From the human T2T-CHM13v2.0 reference genome, Homo sapiens: a DNA stretch of 64,000 bases. Both the position numbers and the translations under genes were made by a program. The DNA is taken from assembly GCF_009914755.1 (NCBI RefSeq), contig NC_060928.1. The stretch is one strand, 5' to 3'. The notes under the pieces were generated by a model. That model had not been told where the DNA came from and did not search any database. It saw only the letters and a list, made by a program, of their open reading frames with translations. Positions 144-10,814 of this stretch are shown one piece after another; positions within the stretch are counted from its first letter, which is position 1, and every line of letters begins with the position of its first letter.

Positions 144-808
144 TTTTTTTTCCATGTGTACATTTCACCTAGCTCCCATTTATAAGTGAAAGCATACAGT
201 ATTTGACTTTCTGTTTCTGAGTCATTTCACTTAAGATAATGGTCTCAAGTTTCTCCCACGTTGCTGCAAAAGACATAATTTCATTATTTTTTATGGTTGA
301 ATATTATTCCATTGTATACATATACCACAACTTCTGTATCCACTAACCCACTGATGGACACTTCCGGTGATTCCATGTCTTTGCTACTGTGAATAGGGCT
401 ATCATAAGCATACAACTGCAAGTATCTTTTTGGTATAATGATTTATTTTCCTTTGGGTAGATACCCAGTAGTGGGATTGCTGGATCAAATGGTAGTTCTA
501 CTTTTAGTCCTTTGAGAAATCTCCACACTCTTTTCCATAGAGGTTGTACTAATTTATATTCCCTCCAGCAGTGTGTAAGCCTTCCCTTCTCTCTGCACCC
601 TCACCGGCATTTGCTATCTTTTGTATTTTTAATAATACCATTCTGATAGGGTAAGAGTATATCTTATTGTAGTTTTCATTTCCATTTATCTGATGATTAG
701 TGATGTTGAGCATTTTTTTCATGTGCTTATTGGCCATTTGTATGTCTTCTTTTGAAAAATGTCTATTCATGTCCTTTGCCCACTTTTTGATGTGGTTGTT
801 TTGTTTTG
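144..808 (-). mobile_element. 5'-truncated L1PB/L1MA-type element, 3' part (continues at 7476-7532)
   Basis: ORF track pieces [25 protein letters not shown] and [19 protein letters not shown] are the ORF2 C-terminus. Poly-T at 144-151; TSD tatatccacaaa at 131-142 and 7533-7544. Confidence 0.8.
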
Positions 809-1033
809 CTTTTTTATTTTTATTTTAAATTCCAGGATATATGTGCAGGATGTGCAGGTTTGTTACATAGAAAAATGTGTGCCATGGTGGTTTGCTGCAC
901 CTATCAACCCATCACCTAGGTATTAAGCCCAGCATGCATTGGCTATTTTTCCTGATGCTCTCTCTCCTGCCGTACCTGCCAACAGGCCCCAAGGTGTGTT
1001 GTTCCCCTCCCTGTGTCCATGTGTTCTCATTTT

Positions 1034-4000
1034 TCAGCTCCCAATTATAAGTGAGAACATCCAGTGTTTGGTTTTCTGTTCCTGCGTTAGTTTGCTGAGG
1101 ATAATGGCTTCCAGCTCCATCCATATCCCTGCAAAGGACATGATCTCATTCCTTTTTATGGCTGCATAGTATCCTATGGTGTATATGTACAACATTTTCC
1201 TTATCCAGTCCATCATTGATGGGCATTTGGGTTGATTCCATGTTTTTGCTATTGTGAATAGTGCTGCAATGAAGTATGAGTGCATGTATCTTTATAATAG
1301 AATGATTTATATTCCTTTGGGTATATACCTAGTATTGAGATTGCTGGGTCAAATGGTACTTCTGTCTTTAGGTCTTTGAGGAATCTCCACACTGTCTTCC
1401 ACAGTGGTTGAACTAATTTGTATTCCCACCAACAGTGTAAAAGTGTTCCTATTTCTCCACAGCCTCACCAGCATCTGTTGTTTCTTGACTTTTTAATAAT
1501 AGCCATTCTGACTGGCATGAGATGGCATCTCATTGTGGTTTTGATTTGCATTTTTCTGGTGATTGGTGATGTTTAGCCTTTTTATATATGTTTGTTGGCT
1601 GCATAAATGTCTTCTTTTGAGAAGTGTCTGTTCATGTCCTTTTCTCACTTTTTAATGGGTATTTTTCTTGTAAATTTGTTAAAAGTTCCTTGTAAATTCT
1701 GGATATTAGTCAGATGGATCGATTGCAAAAATTTTCTCCCATTCTGTAGGCTGTCTGTTCACTCTGATGATCATTTCTTTTGCTGTGCAGAAGCTCTTCA
1801 GTTTAATTAGATTCCATTTGTCAATTTTTGCTTTTGTTGCAATTGCTTTTGATGTGTTTGTCATGAAATCTTTGCTCATGCCTATGTTCTCAATGGTATT
1901 GCCTAGATTTTCTTCTAGGGTTTTTATAATTTTGAGTTTTACATTCAATTCTTTAATCCATCTTGAGTTAATTTTTGTATAAAGTGTAAGGAAGGGGTCC
2001 AGTTTCAATTACCTGCAAATGGCTACCCAGTTCTTTCAGCACCATTTATTAAATAGGGAATCCTTTCCCCATTGCTTGTTTTTGCCAGGTTTGTCAAAGA
2101 TCAGATGGTTGTAGATGTGCGGTCTAATTTCTGAGTTCTCTATTCTGTTCCATTGATGTGTGTGTCTGTTTTTGTACTAGTACCATGCTGTTTTGGTTAT
2201 TGTAGCCTTGTAATATAGTTTGAAGTCAGGTAGCATAATGCCTCCAACTTTGTTCCTTTTGCTTAGGATTGTCTTGGCTATTTGGGCTCTTTGGTTTCAT
2301 ATGAGTTTTAAAGTCATTTGTTCTAATTCTGTGAAGAATGTCAATGGTAGTTTAATGGAAATAGCATTGAATCTATAAATTACTTTGGGCAGCATGGCCA
2401 TTTTCACAATATTGATTCTTCCTATCCATGAGGATGGAATAATATTCCATTTGTTTATGTCCTCTCTGATTTCCTTGAGCAGTGGTTTGTAGTTCTCCTT
2501 GAAGAGATGCTTCACTTCCCTTGTTAGCTGTATTCCTAGGTATATTATTCTCTTTGCAGCAATTGTGAATGGGAGTTCATTCATGATTTGACTCTCTGCA
2601 TGTCTATTTTTGGTGTATAGGAATCCTTGTGATTGTTGCACATTGATTTTGTATCCTGAGAATTTGCTGAAGTTGCTTAACAGCTTAAGAAGTTTTCGGG
2701 CTGAGACAATGGGGTTTTCTAGATACAGAATCATGTCCTCTACAGAGACAATTTGACTTCCTCTCTTCTTATTTGAATTCCTTTATTTCTTTCTCTTGCC
2801 TGATTGCCCTGGCAAGAACTTCCAATAATGTGTTGAATAGGAGTGGTGAGAGAGGGCATCCTTTTCTTGTGCTGATTTTCAAGGGGAATGCTTCCAGCTT
2901 TTGCCCATTCAGTGTGATATTGGTTGTGGTTTATCATAAATGGCTCCTATTATTTTGAGATATGTTCCATCGATAGCTAGTTTATTGAGAGTTTTTAACA
3001 TGAAGAGATGTTAAATTTTATCGAAGGCCTTTTCTGCGTCTATTGAGATAATCATGTGGTGCTTGTTTTAGTTCTGTTTATGTGATTAATTATGTTTATT
3101 AATTTGTGTATGTTGAACCAGCCTTGCATCCCAGGGATGAAGCTGACTTGATCATGGTGGATGAGCTTTTTGATGTGCTGCTGGATTCAGTTTGCCAGCA
3201 TTTTATTGAGGATTTTTGCATCGATGTTCATCAGGGATATTGGCCTGAAGTTTTTTGTTGTTGTTGTATCTCTGCCAGGTTCTGGTATCAGGATGATGCT
3301 GGTCTCATAAAATGAATTAGGGAGAAGTCCCTTCTTTTTAATTGTTTGCAATAGTTTCAGAAGAAATGGTACCAGCTCCTCTTTATACCTCTGGTGGAGT
3401 TCAGCTGTAAATCCGTCTGGTCCTGGGCTTTTTCTTGGTTGGTAGGCTATTTATTACTGCCTCAATTTTAGAACTTGTTATTGGTCTATTTAGGGATTCA
3501 ACTTCTTTCTGGTTCAGTCTTGGAAGGGTGTATTGCTCCGGAATTTATCCTTTTCTTCAAGATTTTCTAGTTTACTTGCATAGAGATGTTTATAATATTC
3601 TCTTATGGTTGTTTGTATTTCTGTGGGGTCAGTGGTAATATCCTCTTCATCATTTTTTATTGTGTCTATTTGATTCTTATTTCTTTTCTTCTTTATTAGT
3701 CTAACTAGAGGTCTATTTTATTAGTTTTTTCCAAAAACCAGCTCCTGAATTTGTTCATTTGTTAAAGGGTTTTTCACGTCTCTATCTTCTTCATTTCTGC
3801 TCTGATCTTTGTTATTTCTTGTCTTCTTTGGGGTTTGTTTTCTCCTGGTTCTATAGTTCTTTTAGTTGTGATGTTGGTTAGGGTGTTGATTTGAGATCTT
3901 TCTAGCTTTTTGATATAGACATTTAGTGCTATAAGCTTCTCTCTTAACACTGCATTAACTGCATCCCAGAGATTCTGGTACGTTGTCTCTTTGTTCTCAT

Positions 4001-4823
4001 TGGCTTCAAAGAACTTCTTGATTTCTGTCTTAATTTCATTAATTACCCAGGAGTCATTCAGGAGCAGGTTGTTCAATTTCCATGTAGTTGTGTGGTTTTT
4101 AGTGAGTTTTTAATCTTGAGTTCTAATTTGATTGCACTGTGATGTGAGAGACAGTTTGTTATGATTTCAGTTCTTTTGCATTTGTTGAGGAGTGCTTTAC
4201 TTCCTGTTATGTCATCGATTTCAGAGTAAGTGCCATGAGACACTGAGAAAAATGTATATTCTGTTGTTTTGGGGTGGAGAGTTCTGTAGATATGTATCAG
4301 GTCCACATGATCCAGAGCTGGGTTCAAGTCCTGAATACTTTTGTTAATTTTCTGTCTCGACAATCTGTCTAATATTGACAGTGGGGTGTTAAGGTCTCCT
4401 ACTACTATTGTGCAAGAGTCTAAGTCTCTTTGTAGTTCTCTAAGAACTTGTTTTATAAATCTGGGTGCTCCTGTATTGGGTGAATATATATTTAGGAGAG
4501 TTAGCTCGTCTTGTTGAATTGAACCCTTTACTATTGTGTAAAGCCCTTCTTTGTCTTTTTTGATCTTTGCTGATTTAAAGACTGTTTTGTCAGAAACTAT
4601 GATTGCAATCCCTACTTTTCTTCTGTTTTCCATTTGCTTGGTAAATTTTTCTCCATTTCTTTATTTTGAGCCTATTTGTGTCTTTGCACATGAGACAGGT
4701 CTCTTGAATACACCACATGGATTGACTCTTTATCCAGCTTGCCATTTTGTGTCTTTTAATTGGAGTGTTTAGCCCATTTTCATTTAAGGTTAATATTGTT
4801 ATGTGTGAATTTGATCCTGTCAT
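1034..4823 (-). pseudogene. Disrupted L1 ORF2 (endonuclease/reverse transcriptase)
   Basis: [14 protein letters not shown] start at 4823, then fragments GIAIIVSDK...[26 protein letters not shown] and [17 protein letters not shown] in shifting frames. Confidence 0.9.
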
Positions 4824-4884
4824 CTTGATGCTAGCTGGTTATTTTTTAGACTTGTTGAGGTAGTTGCTTCATAATATCATTGGT

Positions 4885-5830
4885 CTTTGTACTTCAGTGT
4901 GTTTTTGTAGTGACTGGCAACGGTTTTTCCTTTCCATATTTAGTGCTTCCTTCAGGAGCTCTTGCAAGGCAGGCCTGTTGGTGATGAATTCTCTCAGCAT
5001 TTGCTTGTCTGAAAAGGTTATATTTCTCCTTTGCTTATGAAGCTTAGTTTGGCCACATAGGAAATTCTGGGTTGGAAATTCTTTTCTTTACAAATATTGA
5101 ATATTGGCCCCCAATCTCTTCCTGCTTGTAGGGTTTCTGCTGAGAGATCCACTGTTAGTCTGATGGGCTTCCCTTTGTAGGTGACCTGGCCTTTCTCTCT
5201 GGCTTCCCTTAACATTTTTTCCGCCATTTCGACCTTGGAGAATCTGATCATTACATGTCTTGGGGTTGATCTTCTCATGGAATATCTTAATGGGGTTTTA
5301 CAGATTTCCTGAATTTGAATGTTTGCCTGTCTAGCTAGGTTGGGGAAGTTCTCCTGGATAATATTCTGAAATATGTTTTCAAACTGGGTTCTGTTCTTCC
5401 CATCTCTTTCAAGTACCCCAATCAGTCATAGGTTCAGTCTTTTTACATATTCCCATAGTTCTTGGAGATTTTGTTCATTCCTTTTTATTCTTTTTTCTCT
5501 AATCTGGTCTGCCTGTCTTATTCAGCAAGATAGTCTTCAAACACTGATATTCTTTCCTCCACTTGGTCTATTCAGCTATTAATACTTGAGGTTGCATTGT
5601 GAAGTTCTCGTGTTGTGTTTTTCAGCTCCATCAGGTCATTTATGTTCCCCTCTAAACTGTTTATTCTGGTTAACAGCTCCTGTAATGTTTTATCATCATT
5701 CTTAGACTCTTTGATTTGGGTTAGAAGATGCTCCTTTAGCTCGGTGATGTTCGTTATTACCCACCTGCTGAAGCCTACTTCTGTTAGTTCATTCATCTCA
5801 GCCTCAGCCTAGTTCTGTGCCCTTGCTGGA
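4885..5830 (-). pseudogene. Disrupted L1 ORF1
   Basis: Fragments RRSTPRHVMIRFSKVEM...REKGQVTYKGKPIRLT...ISYVAKLSF and the coiled-coil segment at 5572-5796. Confidence 0.85.
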
Positions 5831-7193
5831 GAGATGGTGCAATCATTTGGAGGAGAGGATGTGGTCTGGCTTTCTTGAGTTTTCAGCATTTTTTTATTGA
5901 TTTTTTTCCTCATCTTCATTAGTTTATCTAGCTTTGATCTTTGAGGCTGCTGACCTTTGGATGGAGTTTTCGTGAGGAAATTTTTGTTGATGCTCTTGTT
6001 GCTGTTGCTTTCTGTTTCTTTGTTTTTCTTTTAACAGTCAGGCCTCTCTTCTGCAGGGCTGCTGTGGTTTGCTGGGGGTCCACTCCAGACCCTATTTGTC
6101 TGGGTCCCTCCCACACCTGGAAGTGTCATGAGTAGAGGGTGCAGAACAGCAAAGATGGCTGCCTTCTTCTTCTGGGAGCTCTGTCTCAGAGGGGCACCGA
6201 CCTGATGCCAGCAAGCTCCTGTATAAGGTCTCTAGCAACCCCTGTTAGGGGTGTCTTACCCAGTCAGGAGGCATGGGATCAGGGACCCTTGTAACAAAGT
6301 ACTCTTGCTGCCTCTTGGTGGAGGGATTGTGGTGTGCTGAGGGGAATCTCACTCCTCCAGACTGCCTGGATTCCTCAGAGCCCGGAGGGAAAAAGACTAA
6401 GTCCACTGATCTATGGAGGCTGCAGCCACCCCTCCCCACTGGGGCTCCACCACAAGGAGATCAGAGCTCTGTTTGTAAACCTCTGGCTGAAGTTGCTGAA
6501 ATTACCACAGGGATGCCTCACCTGGTGAGGAGGGATGGGCCCGGGTCTGGCCTAAAGAGGCAATCTGACCATGATCTGCCACAGCTGCTGTGCTGTGCTG
6601 TGGGGAATTCCTCCTGGGTCCAAACTGCCCAGTCTCCCCAGCACCGGCAGGGGAAAATGGATGACTGAAGCTGCAGTAATAGCTGCTGCCCCTCCCCTCA
6701 GAAACTCAGTCATCTTAGGCAGCAGGCAGCTGCAGTGATGATAGCCGGCCCACCCTCCAGGAACTCGGTAGCCTTAGGCAGTCTCCAGCTGAGCAGCTGA
6801 GAATCTGCACAGCTCTGTGCTGGAGACCTAAGGCCCTGGTGGCACAGGCTCACAAGGGAATCTCCTGATCCACAGGGTTGCACAGATCCATGGAAAAAGC
6901 ATGGTTTCCTGGGCAGGGTAGCACAATCACTGCATCCCATGGCTGGGGTTGGGGGATCCCCTTGCCCTGTGTAGTTCCCAGTAGGCCATTGCTCCACCCG
7001 GCTTTTCCTCATTCTCCGTGGGTTGTGTCAACTGCCTAGTCAGTCCCAATGAGAGAACCTGGATATCTCAGTTGCTAGTGCAGGATTCACTTGCTGTTTT
7101 TTTTCTTCTCAGTGGGAGCCTACCACAGCTGTTTCTGGTCTGGTCGGCCATCTTGGCCCCTCCCTTTTTAGTCAATCCAGAGAAAAAGTAAAG

Positions 7194-7476
7194 ATGATCA
7201 CAAGATGAAGTCCCACAATAGGCCATCTGCAAGCTGAGGAGCAAGAAAGCCTGTCCAAGTCCCAAAATCTCAAAAGTAGGCAAGCTGACAGTGTAGTCTT
7301 CAGTCTGTGGCTGAAGGCCTGAGAGCCTTGGCAAACCACTGGTGTAAGTCCGAGAGTCCAAAAGCTGAAGAACATGGAGTCCAATGTTCAAGGGCAGTAA
7401 GAATCCTGAACAGGAGAAAGATGAAGGCCAGAAGACTCAGCAAATCTGCTCTTTCCATCTTCTTCTGCCTGCTTTT
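7194..7476 (-). mobile_element. MLT2A2 (ERVL/HERV-L LTR) internal fragment ending at the LTR splice-donor position
   Basis: Matches remembered MLT2A2 text (cccacaataggccatctgcaagctgaggagcaag...aaagctgaagaac...ttctgcctgctttt). Both LTR termini are missing. Confidence 0.85.
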
Positions 7477-7677
7477 GGTTATTTGTTTTGTTGTTGTTGT
7501 TGTTGAGTTGTTTGAGTTGATGGTGAATTCTGTATATCCACAAAGTTTTATTTATTTTTTAAGTTACAAGTAAAAATTGTACATATTTATAGTGTACAAT
7601 ATGATTTTTTGATATATGTATACATTGTGGAATGGCTAAATCAAGTTCTTTAACACATGCATGACATCACATACTTA

Positions 7678-8161
7678 TGTAACCCAGAGTCCCTGGGTTT
7701 GGGGGTATGTACTGTGAAAAAGTACCCACTTGTAACTTGTACCTTGAGTTATTATTGTTTCAAAACAGTTCCAGGAAGAAGTTCAGCCCCCAAAAAACAA
7801 AAACCAGTTAGATTCAGAAAGGCCTGAATTGGAGATGAACTTTGGCAAACTCTCCTCATTACTATTCTAAGATCTTGCCTATGGAGGAGTTTTTCACCAT
7901 TTTCTATACATACAATGTATGTAGAAGCATGATCAGTGACTGTGCTTGCACTGCCTTTACTGCACCTCTACATCCATAAAGTTAGCTAGTCCAATACAAG
8001 ATGTTTTCACCTTTATTTGGAGAGGCACTGCTTTGGGAAATATCCCAGGTGTCCTCTTTACTTATTGCATGTAATAAAATCCCTGTGTTAAATCCTCCTT
8101 GGTTGTGGTCATTGGACTGTCACCCACCAAGTGATCGAACCCACCCATTGTGTGGTTAACA
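7678..8161 (+). mobile_element. Solo LTR, ERVL class (MER73/MER54-like, family uncertain)
   Basis: TGT...ACA termini, AATAAA near 8073, cleanly interrupts the L1MA 3'UTR. Confidence 0.65.
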
Positions 8162-8887
8162 CCTATTTTGTGCACGTGGTGAGAACATCTAAAATCTCTC
8201 TTAGCCATTTTCAAATATGATATATAATGATTAATTGTAGTCACCATAATAGACATAGGAAATAGACATCTTGAAATTATTCCTTCTGCCGAGATAAAAT
8301 TTTGTGTCTTTGACTGGCATCTCCCCAGTCTCCTCAATCCCCAGCCTCTGGAAACCAACATTGTATTCTCTGCTTCTATGAGTTCTATATTTTTAGATTT
8401 CACATGTAACTAATATGATGCAGTATTTGTCTTTCTGTGCCTGATTTATTTCACTTAGCATAATATCCTACAGGTCATCCTTTTTGTGACAAATGCCAGG
8501 ATTTTCTTCTTTTTTTAGGATGAATAGTATTCCATCGTGTATATATACACTACATTTTCTTTATCCATTCATCTGTTGACAAACACCTTGCTTATATTAT
8601 ATCTTAGCTATTGTGAGTAATGCTGCAGTAAACACAAGACTGCAAATCTCTTTGACATACTGATTTTACATTGTTTGGATATGCACCCAGTATTAGGATT
8701 ATCAGATCATATTATAGTTCTGTTTTTAATTTTTTGAGGTGCCTCCATACAGATTTCTGTAATGGCTATAATAACTTATATTCCCACCAACCTCTAGCAG
8801 AGTTCCCTTTTCTCCACATCCTAGACAACATTTCTTATGTTTCATCTTTTTATAATACCCATCTGAATGAGTGTGACATTGTATCTC

Positions 8888-9252
8888 TGTATTAGTCTGT
8901 TTCCACACTGCTGATAAAGACACATCCAAGACTGGGTAATTTACAAAAGAAAGAAGTTTATTGAACTTACAGTTCCACATGGCTGGGGAGGCCTCACAAT
9001 CATGGTGGAAGGGAAAGAGGAGCAAGTCACATCTTACATGGATGGTGGCAGGCAAAAAGAGAGTTTGTGCAGGGCAACTCCCATTTTTAAAACCATCAGA
9101 TCTTGTGAAACTCATTCACTATCATGAGAACAGCATGGAAAGATCAACCCCCCGTGATTCAATCATCTCCCACTTGTCCCTCCCACAATACATGGGAATT
9201 ATGGGAGCTACAAGATGAGATTTGGGTGGGGACACAGAGCCAAACCATATCA
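8888..9252 (-). mobile_element. THE1 (THE1C-like) MaLR solo LTR
   Basis: tgtattagtctgtt...gagccaaaccatatca; 5-bp TSD atctc/atctt. Confidence 0.9.
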
Positions 9253-10814
9253 ATCTTATAGTGGTTTTGATTTGCATCTCCCTGATGATTACCATTTGTA
9301 TGTCTTCTATTGAAAAATGTCTATTCAGGTCATTTGCCCATTTAAAAAATCTGTTTTCTTAATACTCAGTTGTTTGAGTTTCTTATACATTTCAGATATT
9401 AATCACTTATTAGATGTGTGGTTTGCAAATATTTTCTTCCATTCTGTAGGCTGTCTCTTCACTAGGTTGAGTGTTTCCTTTGCTGTGAAGAAGCTTTTTA
9501 GTTTGATGTAATCTTATTTGTCTATTTTGCTTTCGTTGCCTGTGCCTTTGGGGTCACATCCAAAAAACTCATTGCCAAGACCACTGTCATAGAGCTTTTC
9601 CTCTATGTTTTCTTGTAGTAGAATTATAGTTTCAGGCCTTATATTTAAGTATTTAATCCATTTTGAATGGATTTTTTATATGATAAGAGATGAGGGTCTA
9701 ATTTTATTGTTCTTCATATGGATATCTAGTTTTCCCAGCACCAATGCTTGAAGAAACTGTGTTTTACCCACTGTGTGTTACTGACATCTTGGTCAAAATC
9801 CGTTGACCATAAATGTGTAGATTTATTTCTGGGCTCTCTATTCTGCTCCATTGATTATGTGTCTGTTTTTATGCCAGTTCCATACTGTTTTGATTACTAT
9901 AGCTTTATATATATTTTCAAATCAAGTAGTGTGATGTTTCCAGCTTTGTTCTTTTTGCTTAAGATTGCTTTGGCTATCCAGTCTGGTCCCATACAAATAT
10001 TAAAATTGTTTTTTCTAGTTCTGTGGAAAATGTCATTGGAATTTTGATAGGAATTGCATTGAATCTGTAGATCACTTTGAGTTTTATTCAACAATATTAA
10101 TTATTCCAATCTACAAACATGGGATATTTTTCTATTTGTTTGTGTCTTGTTCAATTTCTTTCATTAGCATTTTATAATTTTCAGTATACAGATATTTCAC
10201 CTCCTTGGTTAAATTCATTCCAATTTTTTTGGTAGCCATTATAAAGGGGATTTTTTTCTTAAATTTTTTCAAATAGTTTGTTGTTAGTATACATAAATGC
10301 TACTAAGTTTCAGATGTTGATTTTTTATCTTGCAGCTTTACTGAATTCATTTATTCACTCTAACAGTTTTTTGCAGAGTCTATGTATATGATTATGTGTC
10401 TGCAGAGACAATTTTATTTCTTCCTTTCCAATTTGGATGCCTTTTATTTGTTTCAATTGCTTTGCCTAGTATGTCCAGTATTATGTTGGTTAAAGTTGCA
10501 AAAGTGAGTGTTCTTGTATTATACCTAATCTTAGAGAAAAAGCTTCTCCCCCATTGAACTTTTCATCATTTAATATGGTGTTAGCTATGGGCCTGTCATA
10601 TATGACCTTTATTGTGTTGAGATACATTTCTTCTTCACCTAATTTGTTGAGAGTTTTTATCATGAAAGTATGTTGAATTTTGTCAAATGTTTTTTCTGCA
10701 TCTATTGAGATAATCATATAGCTTTTGTCCTTCATTCTGTTTATGTGGTGTATCACATTTATGGATTTATTTATGTTGAAACATCTTTGCATCCCAAAGA
10801 TAAAATGCTTTTTC

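What the first reader, a model, noticed from the sequence alone, without database searches (positions are those of the whole stretch)
793..7490. Fossil MLT2A2-promoted, spliced chimeric L1 transcript retrotransposed as one unit (LTR-driven 5' transduction)
Seen: on the - strand the order is TSD (7490-7476), about 280 bp of MLT2A2 (7476-7194), a 29-nt non-LTR linker ctttactttttctctggattgactaaaaa (7193-7165), a full-length L1PA10-13, poly-A, then TSD (808-793). The near-identical flanks tggttatttgttttg and tggttgttttgttttg enclose the LTR piece AND the L1. The older host L1 resumes in register after 7490, and no TSD brackets the L1 alone. Established/recalled: MLT2A LTRs are DUX4-responsive promoters in cleavage-stage human embryos and contain ...ttgtgatcgt|GTGAGT. 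The fragment ends at ttgtgatcat, exactly before that donor, and lacks the upstream promoter part and the downstream poly-A signal. Inference: an MLT2A2 LTR drove a transcript spliced to an acceptor just upstream of a source L1, and that RNA was mobilised by TPRT. This would be a fossil record of an ERV-L promoter launching L1 retrotransposition in the early embryo or germline of an ancestral primate.
Basis: partly seen in the sequence, partly recalled or inferred. Interest (0 to 1): 0.9.

Follow-up and report, generated by a model that had tools for sequence, protein, structure and literature searches.

The report
Spliced LTR exon riding an L1
An old L1 jumping-gene copy carries at its front a spliced piece of a retroviral LTR, so the two RNAs were joined before insertion; this kind of event is known, but this LTR partner, which turns up at three places in the genome, is not in the published catalogue.

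Summary
On the minus strand, a 15/16-nt target-site duplication (7490-7476 and 808-793) in an older L1 encloses three parts. These are 282 nt of an MLT2A2-type LTR (7475-7194), 29 nt of unknown origin (7193-7165), and a complete 6.36-kb L1 with an A-rich tail (7164-809). Related host-type L1 copies carry the duplicated stretch once, so the duplication is real.

The LTR piece covers LTR positions ~181-462 of ~549. It stops on the last base before GTGAGT, the donor used in 4-8-cell embryos. It therefore reads as a spliced exon mobilised together with the L1 in one TPRT event.

- The piece starts at the LTR's TATA-like box, 24-34 nt upstream of the published embryonic start sites (205-215), so "LTR-promoted" is not established.
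- No source L1, sibling copy or origin of the linker was found, so cis-splicing cannot be separated from trans joining or template switching.

This class of insertion (exons ending at donors fused to near-full-length L1) was catalogued by Law and Burns. This locus is absent from the tables of theirs that I could read.

Motif scans found two further independent MLT2A-exon/L1 chimeras, on chr11 and chrX. The chrX copy has a 134/136-identical source LTR on chr3. Verdict: a new member of a known kind, of moderate interest.

The parts
7476..7490 (-). 5' copy of the target-site duplication (CAAAACAAATAACCA), host L1 sequence
   Evidence: Related host-type L1 copies carry this stretch once.
7194..7475 (-). 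282-nt MLT2A2-type ERVL LTR piece, LTR positions ~181-462 of ~549. It runs from the TATA-like box to the last base before the GTGAGT donor.
   Evidence: 87-90% identity to 19 full LTR copies. 16 of 19 copies read GT right after our end.
7165..7193 (-). 29-nt linker of unknown origin, pyrimidine-rich and ending in AAAAA
   Evidence: Unique in CHM13 at up to 3 mismatches. Not above chance against the LTR 3' tails (380 of 500 shuffles reach the observed score), against flanks of 24 sibling L1s (97 of 300), or against 1.5 kb downstream of 19 LTR copies.
827..7164 (-). Full-length old primate L1 body, starting at the family's first bases (GGGAGGGGCCAAGATGG); coding frames decayed
   Evidence: 5' end 79-83%, 3' end 88-91% identical to the best relatives; longest ORFs on this strand are 186, 145 and 100 aa.
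809..826 (-). A-rich tail of the L1 (AAAATAAAAATAAAAAAG)
   Evidence: Read directly.
793..808 (-). 3' copy of the target-site duplication (CAAAACAAAACAACCA)
151..792 (-). Older host L1 (ORF2 3' region onward) resuming after the insertion
   Evidence: window 805..151 aligns to the inserted L1's own positions 5496-6149 at 75.9%; 81-85% identity to related copies.
7491..7540 (-). Short upstream remainder of the host L1 (5'-truncated near 7540)
   Evidence: collinear alignment, score 35 against shuffles of 27.1 +/- 4.5, with 31 of 500 shuffles reaching it; collinear with related copies.

Best explanation
Window 793-7490 (minus strand) is a single L1-mediated, target-primed insertion into an older L1. 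The template was a hybrid RNA made of three parts:
- an exon derived from an MLT2A2 LTR, running from about the LTR's TATA-like box to the base before its GTGAGT donor;
- 29 nt of unidentified sequence;
- a complete L1 mRNA.

The donor-exact end shows that the spliceosome cut the LTR exon. The most economical route is that this exon was spliced to an acceptor lying 29 nt upstream of a full-length source L1. That could happen in cis on a read-through pre-mRNA, as documented for RAP1GDS1-L1PA2 with an acceptor 15 bp upstream, or in trans. The L1 proteins would then have copied their own 5'-extended RNA.

Shown here: the TSD, all four boundaries, the donor coincidence, and the completeness of the L1.
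Inferred: the acceptor, the source arrangement, and the promoter that launched the RNA.
For: - The TSD encloses LTR piece, linker and L1, and related host-type L1 copies carry the duplicated stretch once.
- The LTR piece is in the same orientation as the L1.
- It ends on the exact base before GT in 16 of 19 full LTR copies. That is one particular position out of ~549.
- Hashimoto et al. report GT donors 'around 450' in MLT2A2 that are used in 4-8-cell embryos (PMC8559712, passages). My mapping places our end at position 462.
- The L1 starts at the family's own first bases and ends in an A-rich tail.
- There is precedent. Law and Burns describe 17 hg38 insertions with exons fused to near-full-length L1. 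Six of these end precisely at donors, and one has an identified source L1 with a cryptic acceptor 15 bp upstream (PMC11838501, sections 25-26).
- MLT2A1-to-LINE1 chimeric RNAs are reported in human 8-cell embryos (review PMC13690279, passages).
Against: - No source or sibling was found. The linker 29-mer, the LTR/linker 35-mer and the linker/L1 31-mer each match only this locus at up to 3 mismatches. The 23-mer gives 18 other hits against 32 for the reversed control.
- At this age a 29-mer would be expected to differ at more than 3 sites from its source, so these negative results are weak.
- No outlier LTR copy stands out: the best is 89.7% and the next 89.0%.
- The acceptor itself is invisible in a spliced product.
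- The sequence at the nick site (AA/CAAA in sense) is not the textbook L1 endonuclease motif.
- The chrX analogue found here has the donor joined within 0-2 nt of the L1 terminus. It has no L1 in the 10 kb downstream of its source LTR. This favours a trans mechanism at least for that case.
- Arrival of both parts together was not checked in other primates.
Confidence: 0.55

Rival explanations
1. Two separate RNAs were joined during or just before reverse transcription. The L1 mRNA was copied to its 5' end. The enzyme then jumped onto an independent, already cut or spliced MLT2A2-exon RNA, or the two RNAs were ligated. The 29 nt would be a remnant of exon 2 or filler.
For: - The L1 part begins exactly at the family's first bases, which is what a copied natural L1 mRNA would give.
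- Law and Burns found no intronic L1 at 15 of 17 partner loci. They also note junctions at L1 positions 1-10 without an acceptor, and short untemplated junction sequence in 4 cases (PMC11838501, sections 25 and 33).
- In the chrX chimera the donor abuts the L1 terminus with 0-2 nt between them.
- The chrX piece's 134/136-identical source LTR on chr3 has no L1 within 10 kb downstream.
- Three independent loci would otherwise each need an acceptor within 0-29 nt of a source L1.
Against: - 29 nt is long for filler.
- Jumping to an internal point of a spliced RNA is less natural than jumping to an RNA 3' end.
- 10 kb is short compared with the 48-kb median intron reported for such partners.
- Cis preference of the L1 proteins favours a single RNA.
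Confidence: 0.33
2. The MLT2A2 LTR's own DUX4-type embryonic promoter started the RNA, which was spliced in cis into a source L1. The locus would then be a fossil of an ERVL promoter launching L1 in the early embryo. This is a special case of the best explanation, not an independent alternative.
For: - The piece lacks LTR positions 1-180.
- The 5' ends of all three chimeras (chr4 ~181; chr11 at the same AAAGCA block, which is position 180-181 in full copies; chrX 225 in its source LTR) fall within ~45 nt around the published start sites. None includes upstream U3.
- The chrX copy has an extra G at its 5' end that is absent from both the TSD and the source LTR. Reading this as a cap signature is from recall.
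- MLT2A families are transcribed at the 4-8-cell stage and spliced from internal donors (PMC8559712).
Against: - Our piece starts 24-34 nt upstream of the reported 205-215 start sites. It begins on the TATA-like box itself.
- 5' truncation of a longer read-through RNA at this A-rich block explains the start equally well.
- MLT2A copies are also active in pineal gland and amniotic membrane, so the cell type is not fixed.
- The DUX4 dependence of the unknown source copy cannot be tested.
Confidence: 0.22
3. Separate DNA-level events. An MLT2A2 LTR and an L1 inserted independently, and later deletions trimmed the LTR at both ends.
For: None that is specific. Nested repeats and deletions are common in this L1-rich region.
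Against: - The host-derived TSD lies outside both parts, and no TSD brackets the L1 alone.
- An ERV integration would leave TG...CA ends and a 5-bp duplication, as the 19 full copies show.
- A random deletion would have to stop exactly at the donor, roughly a 1 in 549 chance.
- The same architecture recurs at chr11 and chrX with other LTR copies and other L1s.
Confidence: 0.04

Closest known systems
mRNA/lncRNA-LINE-1 5' chimeric insertions ('5' transductions'), Law and Burns, bioRxiv 2025 / Cell Genomics 2026, including RAP1GDS1-L1PA2
   Same: - TSD around both parts.
- Sense orientation of the 5' part.
- Near-full-length L1.
- The 5' part ends precisely at a splice donor.
- In one case an acceptor lies a few bp upstream of the source L1.
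- In some cases there is short unexplained junction sequence.
   Different: - The partner here is an exon made of an ERVL LTR (a repeat), not a unique gene exon.
- This locus, and the chr11 and chrX loci, are not in their readable tables mmc2-5. There are no 'MLT2A' or 'CTTGTGAT' strings, and no chr4 143.03-143.10 Mb entry.
- Their PDF supplements could not be read, and table cells over 400 characters are cut.
- No source was found for the chr4 case.
SVA_F1 (MAST2 exon 1 spliced into SVA)
   Same: A first exon is spliced onto a retrotransposon RNA and the product is mobilised by L1 proteins (PMC4859970, passages).
   Different: SVA_F1 became a propagating subfamily with an acceptor inside the element. 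Here there is a single copy with no siblings, and the junction lies outside the L1.
U6/L1 and other small-RNA/L1 chimeras (template switching or RtcB ligation)
   Same: Two RNAs end up inside one TSD, with the foreign RNA at the 5' side.
   Different: As I recall, in those chimeras the partner is a complete small RNA and the L1 is usually 5'-truncated. Law and Burns contrast the two classes. Here the L1 is complete and the partner is a Pol II exon cut at its donor. PMC6789731 was seen only as a search listing and abstract start.
MLT2A1-derived TE-TE chimeric RNAs of human 8-cell embryos
   Same: An MLT2A 5' 'head' is fused to LINE1 sequence at the RNA level (review PMC13690279, passages).
   Different: Those are transcripts. 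Here a DNA copy is fixed in the genome with a whole L1 behind it. The primary study is not in the library and was not read.
SpIREs (spliced integrated retrotransposed L1s)
   Same: Splicing of L1-containing RNA is recorded in the genome by retrotransposition.
   Different: SpIRE splicing is internal to the L1 5' UTR. The chr4 L1 shows no such deletion. The chr11 chimera does look SpIRE-like. Law and Burns mention deletions of positions 99-624. PMC5860796 was seen as a search listing only.

Membership tests
L1 TPRT insertion carrying a 5' appended exon (Law and Burns class) | One target-site duplication flanks both the appended sequence and the L1 | tested here: met
   15/16-nt TSD at 7490-7476 and 808-793. 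The stretch occurs once in related host-type L1 copies.
L1 TPRT insertion carrying a 5' appended exon (Law and Burns class) | Poly-A tail at the L1 3' end and an L1 endonuclease-like target | tested here: inconclusive
   An A-rich tail is present at 826-809. The nick context AA/CAAA is A-rich but not the canonical TT/AAAA.
L1 TPRT insertion carrying a 5' appended exon (Law and Burns class) | The appended part is in sense orientation and ends at a splice donor | tested here: met
   Same strand as the L1. 16 of 19 full LTR copies read GT at the next base. A donor 'around 450' is reported as used in embryos.
L1 TPRT insertion carrying a 5' appended exon (Law and Burns class) | Both parts arrive together in phylogeny (empty site in outgroups) | not testable with these tools
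   No other primate genome or multi-species alignment is held.
Cis-spliced 5' transduction (RAP1GDS1-L1PA2 type) | An identifiable source L1 with an acceptor just upstream, downstream of the donor exon | tested here: not met
   No match to the linker or to either junction elsewhere in CHM13. No L1 5' end in the 1.5-kb flanks of 19 LTR copies. No linker-like sequence in those flanks. Sensitivity is low at this age.
MLT2A2 (ERVL/HERVL LTR) | Homology to a dispersed LTR family with TG...CA ends, 5-bp duplications, length ~549 and an internal GT donor followed by AATAAA | tested here: met
   - 19 copies at 87-90% identity.
- Modal ends TGTGATGG...CTAATACA, with flanking 5-nt repeats.
- Median length 545 nt, range 496-550.
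- The published MLT2A2 length is 549.
- The chr11 and chrX pieces lack a ~91-nt block that our piece has, which fits the A2 versus A1 distinction.
LTR-promoted transcript from the canonical embryonic MLT2A start site | 5' end at consensus positions 205-215, downstream of the TATA box | tested here: not met
   Our piece starts at position 181 (median of 19 copies, range 161-183), on the AATAAAG box. The published start sites are 205-215. My coordinates come from copies, not from the Repbase consensus.
U6/L1-type template-switch chimera | A complete small structured RNA at the 5' side of a usually truncated L1 | tested here: not met
   The partner is a 282-nt internal segment of an LTR, and the L1 is full length.

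The most novel reading that the evidence does not exclude
Donor-terminated first exons of MLT2A LTRs are a recurrent 5' partner of L1. At least three independent events are recorded:
- chr4: MLT2A2-type piece with an old L1.
- chr11: MLT2A1-type piece with an intermediate, internally spliced L1.
- chrX: MLT2A1-type piece with a young-looking L1, copied from an LTR on chr3.

These events span tens of millions of years. Each time, an LTR exon was fixed onto the first bases of a whole L1.

Family-wide MLT2A transcription and MLT2A-LINE1 chimeric RNAs are hallmarks of the 4-8-cell embryo. These fossils would therefore mark the cleavage-stage embryo as a place where heritable L1 retrotransposition and RNA-RNA joining happen. 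They would also show a route by which L1 can acquire a new 5' regulatory region.
Probability: 0.33. Interest if true: 0.75.

Novelty: new member of a known kind. Interest (0 to 1): 0.58.

Why it matters
Where and when heritable L1 insertions arise is hard to read from genomes. The candidates are the germ line and the early embryo. How L1 has repeatedly replaced its 5' region is also unclear.

A chimeric insertion keeps a record of another RNA that was present, and being spliced, in the very cell where the L1 jumped. Here that RNA is an ERVL LTR exon whose family is transcribed mainly at embryonic genome activation.

One locus is an anecdote of a known class. If a systematic scan confirmed that embryo-specific LTR exons are over-represented among L1 5' partners, that would give a genomic, cross-species read-out of the cell state in which heritable retrotransposition occurred. 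It would also allow a test of cis-splicing against trans-splicing or template switching.

Tried and rejected
1. Linker as the 3' end (U5) of the same LTR, which would imply an intra-LTR mini-intron. A collinear-looking alignment exists, but 380 of 500 shuffled linkers score as well. Rejected as unsupported.
2. Linker from elsewhere in the window. No other match at up to 8 mismatches on either strand.
3. Linker as the upstream flank of one of 24 related full-length L1s. The best local score was 21 (L032), and 97 of 300 shuffles reach it. Rejected.
4. Source LTR by identity. There is no outlier among the scored copies: 89.7% against 89.0%.
5. L1 5' end or linker-like sequence within 1.5 kb of 19 LTR copies. 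None found.
6. Sibling copies by junction patterns. Only the locus itself matched. The 23-mer gave 18 other hits against 32 for the control.
7. TSD of the chr11 chimera. Its L1 stops at about position 2662 against an Alu 3' end plus A-tail. No convincing duplication was seen. A 19-mer scan of the flank gave 254 hits against 582 for the control, and the printed list was cut before chr11. This was uninformative.
8. Chance hits of the gapped scans. C3:153482696 was read and is neither LTR nor L1. C2, C5, the two C16 hits and five others were judged from their matched strings only.
10. Naming the L1 subfamily was not possible, because no repeat library is held.

Full report
**Anatomy**

Read on the minus strand, the order is:
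- an old host L1;
- CAAAACAAATAACCA (7490-7476);
- an LTR-like segment beginning AAAGCAGGCAG at 7475 and ending ...CTTGTGATCAT at 7194;
- CTTTACTTTTTCTCTGGATTGACTAAAAA (7193-7165);
- GGGAGGGGCCAAGATGGCC... from 7164, running as L1 to an A-rich tail (826-809);
- CAAAACAAAACAACCA (808-793);
- host L1 again (CATCAAAAAGTGGGCAAAGG...).

**Is the duplication real?**

The downstream flank (805..151) aligns to the inserted L1's own ORF2 3' region at 75.9%, so the host is an L1 in the same orientation.

I fetched 29 related host-type copies, 81-85% identical. In every printed row the A-rich stretch before the ...CATTAAAAAGTGGGC-type block shows no second copy within the 94 nt printed. By my eye, 24 of the 29 rows carry it in recognisable form, for example ...CAACAACAACACAAAACAAATAATCCCATTAAAAAGTG in L050.

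The window has this stretch at the end of the upstream flank and again at the start of the downstream flank. In 3 of 29 loci, BLAST places both flanks on overlapping positions of that single stretch (overlaps of 21, 12 and 17 nt). A fourth alignment stopped short.

The upstream flank is only weakly alignable on its own: score 35 against shuffles of 27.1 +/- 4.5, with 31 of 500 shuffles reaching it. The reason is that the host L1 is 5'-truncated near 7540. There it meets the A-rich end of another old L1.

The nick context is A-rich but not the textbook endonuclease motif.

**The LTR piece**

A search of the window's own assembly (T2T-CHM13) with 7500..7100 scored 40 of 4296 candidates. All 39 non-self hits (86-90% identity) cover only query 13-31 to 300-307. 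None runs into the host, the linker or the L1.

Pairwise comparison of 19 fetched copies gave the following:
- They share ~180 nt upstream and ~86-90 nt downstream of our segment.
- They begin TGTGATGG and end CTAATACA, with flanking 5-nt repeats.
- Their median length is 545 nt (496-550).
- Our segment corresponds to LTR positions 181 (range 161-183) to 462 (443-466).

Directly after our last base, 16 of 19 copies read GT (mostly GTGAGT, twice GTAAGT), 2 read AT and 1 reads GC. AATAAA follows about 18 nt later. L015 and L016 are duplicates of each other.

Hashimoto et al. 2021 (PMC8559712, passages read) report:
- MLT2A2 has a 549-bp consensus.
- Its embryonic splice sites cluster 'around 350 and 450' with GT donors.
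- Start sites lie at 205-215, in an AG-rich region downstream of a TATA box.

**The 5' boundary**

In the full copies, the sequence around our first base reads ...GCTAGAATAAAGCAGGCAGAAGAAG.... Our piece begins on the AATAAAG box, 24-34 nt upstream of the published start sites.

The RNA therefore did not start at the canonical embryonic site. Either it used another start, or it came from further upstream and the copy was truncated in this A-rich block. My coordinates are derived from copies, not from the Repbase consensus. However, the total length agrees with the published 549.

**The L1**

With 7200..6800 as query, 39 non-self hits (40 scored of 1861 candidates; 79-83% identity) begin at query 31-65, mostly 36-40. 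That corresponds to window 7165-7161.

In 23 of 24 fetched copies, the element starts with the same G-rich GGGAGGGGCCAAGATGG-type terminus, and the upstream flanks are unrelated.

The 3' 501 nt are 88-91% identical to the best relatives. The host is older, at 81-85%. No ORF on the L1 strand exceeds 186 aa. The label L1PA10-13 could not be tested.

**The linker**

The linker is unique in CHM13 at up to 3 mismatches and has no other match in the window at up to 8 mismatches.

I checked three possible origins:
- The LTR's own 3' end, which would imply a 55-nt intra-LTR intron ending in AG. 380 of 500 shuffles score as well.
- The flanks of 24 sibling L1s. 97 of 300 shuffles reach the best score.
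- The 1.5 kb downstream of 19 LTR copies. The best match has 11 mismatches, and the null minima are 9-12.

Nothing identifies its origin.

Junction patterns across the LTR/linker boundary and the linker/L1 boundary match only this locus. The 23-mer gives 18 other hits against 32 for the reversed control. Given the age of the insertion, these negative results are weak.

**What is known**

Law and Burns (PMC11838501; abstract and sections 25, 26 and 33 read) describe this class:
- There are 17 hg38 insertions in which mRNA or lncRNA exons are fused to the 5' end of mostly near-full-length L1s inside one TSD.
- 15 of the 17 are in sense orientation.
- 6 end precisely at donors.
- 4 have short untemplated junction sequence.
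- 15 come from loci without an intronic L1.
- One case (RAP1GDS1-L1PA2) has an identified source, in which a cryptic acceptor lies 15 bp upstream of the L1.
- They propose trans-splicing for the remaining cases.

Their main text does not mention ERV or MLT2 partners. The readable supplementary tables of the published version (PMC13174262, mmc2-5) contain no 'MLT2A' and no 'CTTGTGAT'. They contain no entry at my estimated hg38 position (chr4 143.03-143.10 Mb). They contain none of the TSD strings of the three loci. The PDF supplements could not be read, and long cells are cut.

SVA_F1 (MAST2 exon 1 spliced into SVA) is the classical analogue (PMC4859970, passages).

A 2026 review reports that MLT2A1 forms chimeric RNAs with LINE1 and Alu in human 8-cell embryos (PMC13690279, passages). 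The primary paper is not in the library.

None showed such a report.

**Recurrence**

- Five scans were run. Four of them returned this locus. The fifth was spaced for the shorter MLT2A1-type piece.
- Four scans returned chr11:27298342-27298440. Three returned chrX:74762583-74762680.
- The ten other hits are chance. One was read and the others were judged from their matched strings.

*chr11*:
- A 170-nt MLT2A1-type piece begins at the same AAAGCA block. The 39 non-self hits start at query 125-138 of 301, and none starts further upstream.
- It ends ...CTTGTGATCAT, followed by GGCTT, and then an L1 5' end whose 5' UTR looks internally spliced.
- This L1 is cut at about position 2662 by an Alu tail, and I could not establish a TSD.

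*chrX*:
- AGAAACAACTGC at the 5' side and AGAAGCAACTGC after an A15 tail flank the insertion.
- Inside are an extra G, a 135-nt MLT2A1-type piece ending ...CTTGTGATGAT, and then, with 0-2 nt between, the first bases of a ~6-kb young-looking L1.
- The piece is 134/136 identical to a full LTR at chr3:5969927-5970061. The next best copy is 95% identical.
- That chr3 LTR continues with GTAAGT.
- The copy starts at position 225 of that LTR.
- No L1 lies in the 10 kb downstream of the chr3 LTR.

The three pieces are 80-89% identical to one another, so the events are independent.

**Reading**

The single-event, RNA-level origin is well supported; I put it at about 0.9. The donor-exact end and the recurrence make sequential DNA events very unlikely.

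Which RNA-level route applied at chr4 is open:
- The 29-nt linker is most simply the stretch between an acceptor and the source L1. This has the RAP1GDS1 precedent.
- The chrX case and most catalogued cases point to joining of two RNAs at the L1's very 5' end.

The three 5' ends lie at about 181, at the same AAAGCA block on chr11 (position 180-181 in full copies), and at 225. They bracket the published 205-215 start sites but do not coincide with them. None includes upstream U3. This is suggestive of initiation within the LTR, but it is also compatible with truncation at an A-rich block.

The embryonic setting is an attractive inference from the expression of MLT2A. It was not tested here.

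Noticed in passing
L082 (G000:C11:27298250-27298720), with L084-L087 and L094: A second MLT2A-exon/L1 chimera. A 170-nt MLT2A1-type LTR piece starts at the same AAAGCA block and ends at the same donor, followed by GGCTT and an L1 5' end. The L1 5' UTR looks internally spliced (SpIRE-like). The L1 stops at about position 2662 against an Alu 3' end plus A-tail. No TSD was established.
   Followed up: partly
L096 and L097 (G000:C23:74756250-74762960): A third chimera on chrX with a clean 12-nt TSD carrying 1 mismatch. It consists of an extra G, a 135-nt MLT2A1-type piece ending at the donor, and then, 0-2 nt later, the first bases of a ~6-kb young-looking L1 with an A15 tail.
   Followed up: partly
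L098 and L099 (G000:C3:5959650-5970300): The likely source LTR of the chrX piece. It is a full MLT2A1-type LTR, 134/136 identical over the copied part, continuing with GTAAGT and AATAAA. No L1 lies within the 10 kb downstream.
   Followed up: partly
window 6706-7205: The RefSeq 'enhancer' feature given in the hub's annotation covers the first ~460 nt of the L1 5' UTR, the whole linker and the last 12 nt of the LTR piece. The annotated regulatory activity therefore sits on the chimeric junction.
   Followed up: no
window 7541-9500: Another old L1 3' portion lies on the same strand. 8887..8367 and 9498..9300 align to the inserted L1 at 68-72%. It ends in an A-rich run at ~7546, right against the 5'-truncated host L1. 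A 52-nt stretch (9343..9292) is 92% identical to host L1 785..734.
   Followed up: no
L015 and L016 (G000:C16:16436716 and C16:14795302): Two MLT2A2 copies whose flanks are similar over the full 400 nt compared on both sides, so they lie in a segmental duplication. I counted them as one independent copy where it mattered.
   Followed up: no
L002-L020: Full MLT2A2 copies show TGTGATGG...CTAATACA ends with 5-nt flanking repeats. They also carry a CCATCTAATCA-type motif about 30 nt upstream of the AATAAAG box. Its resemblance to the DUX4 site is from recall, and the paper reports DUX4 motifs in these LTRs.
   Followed up: no
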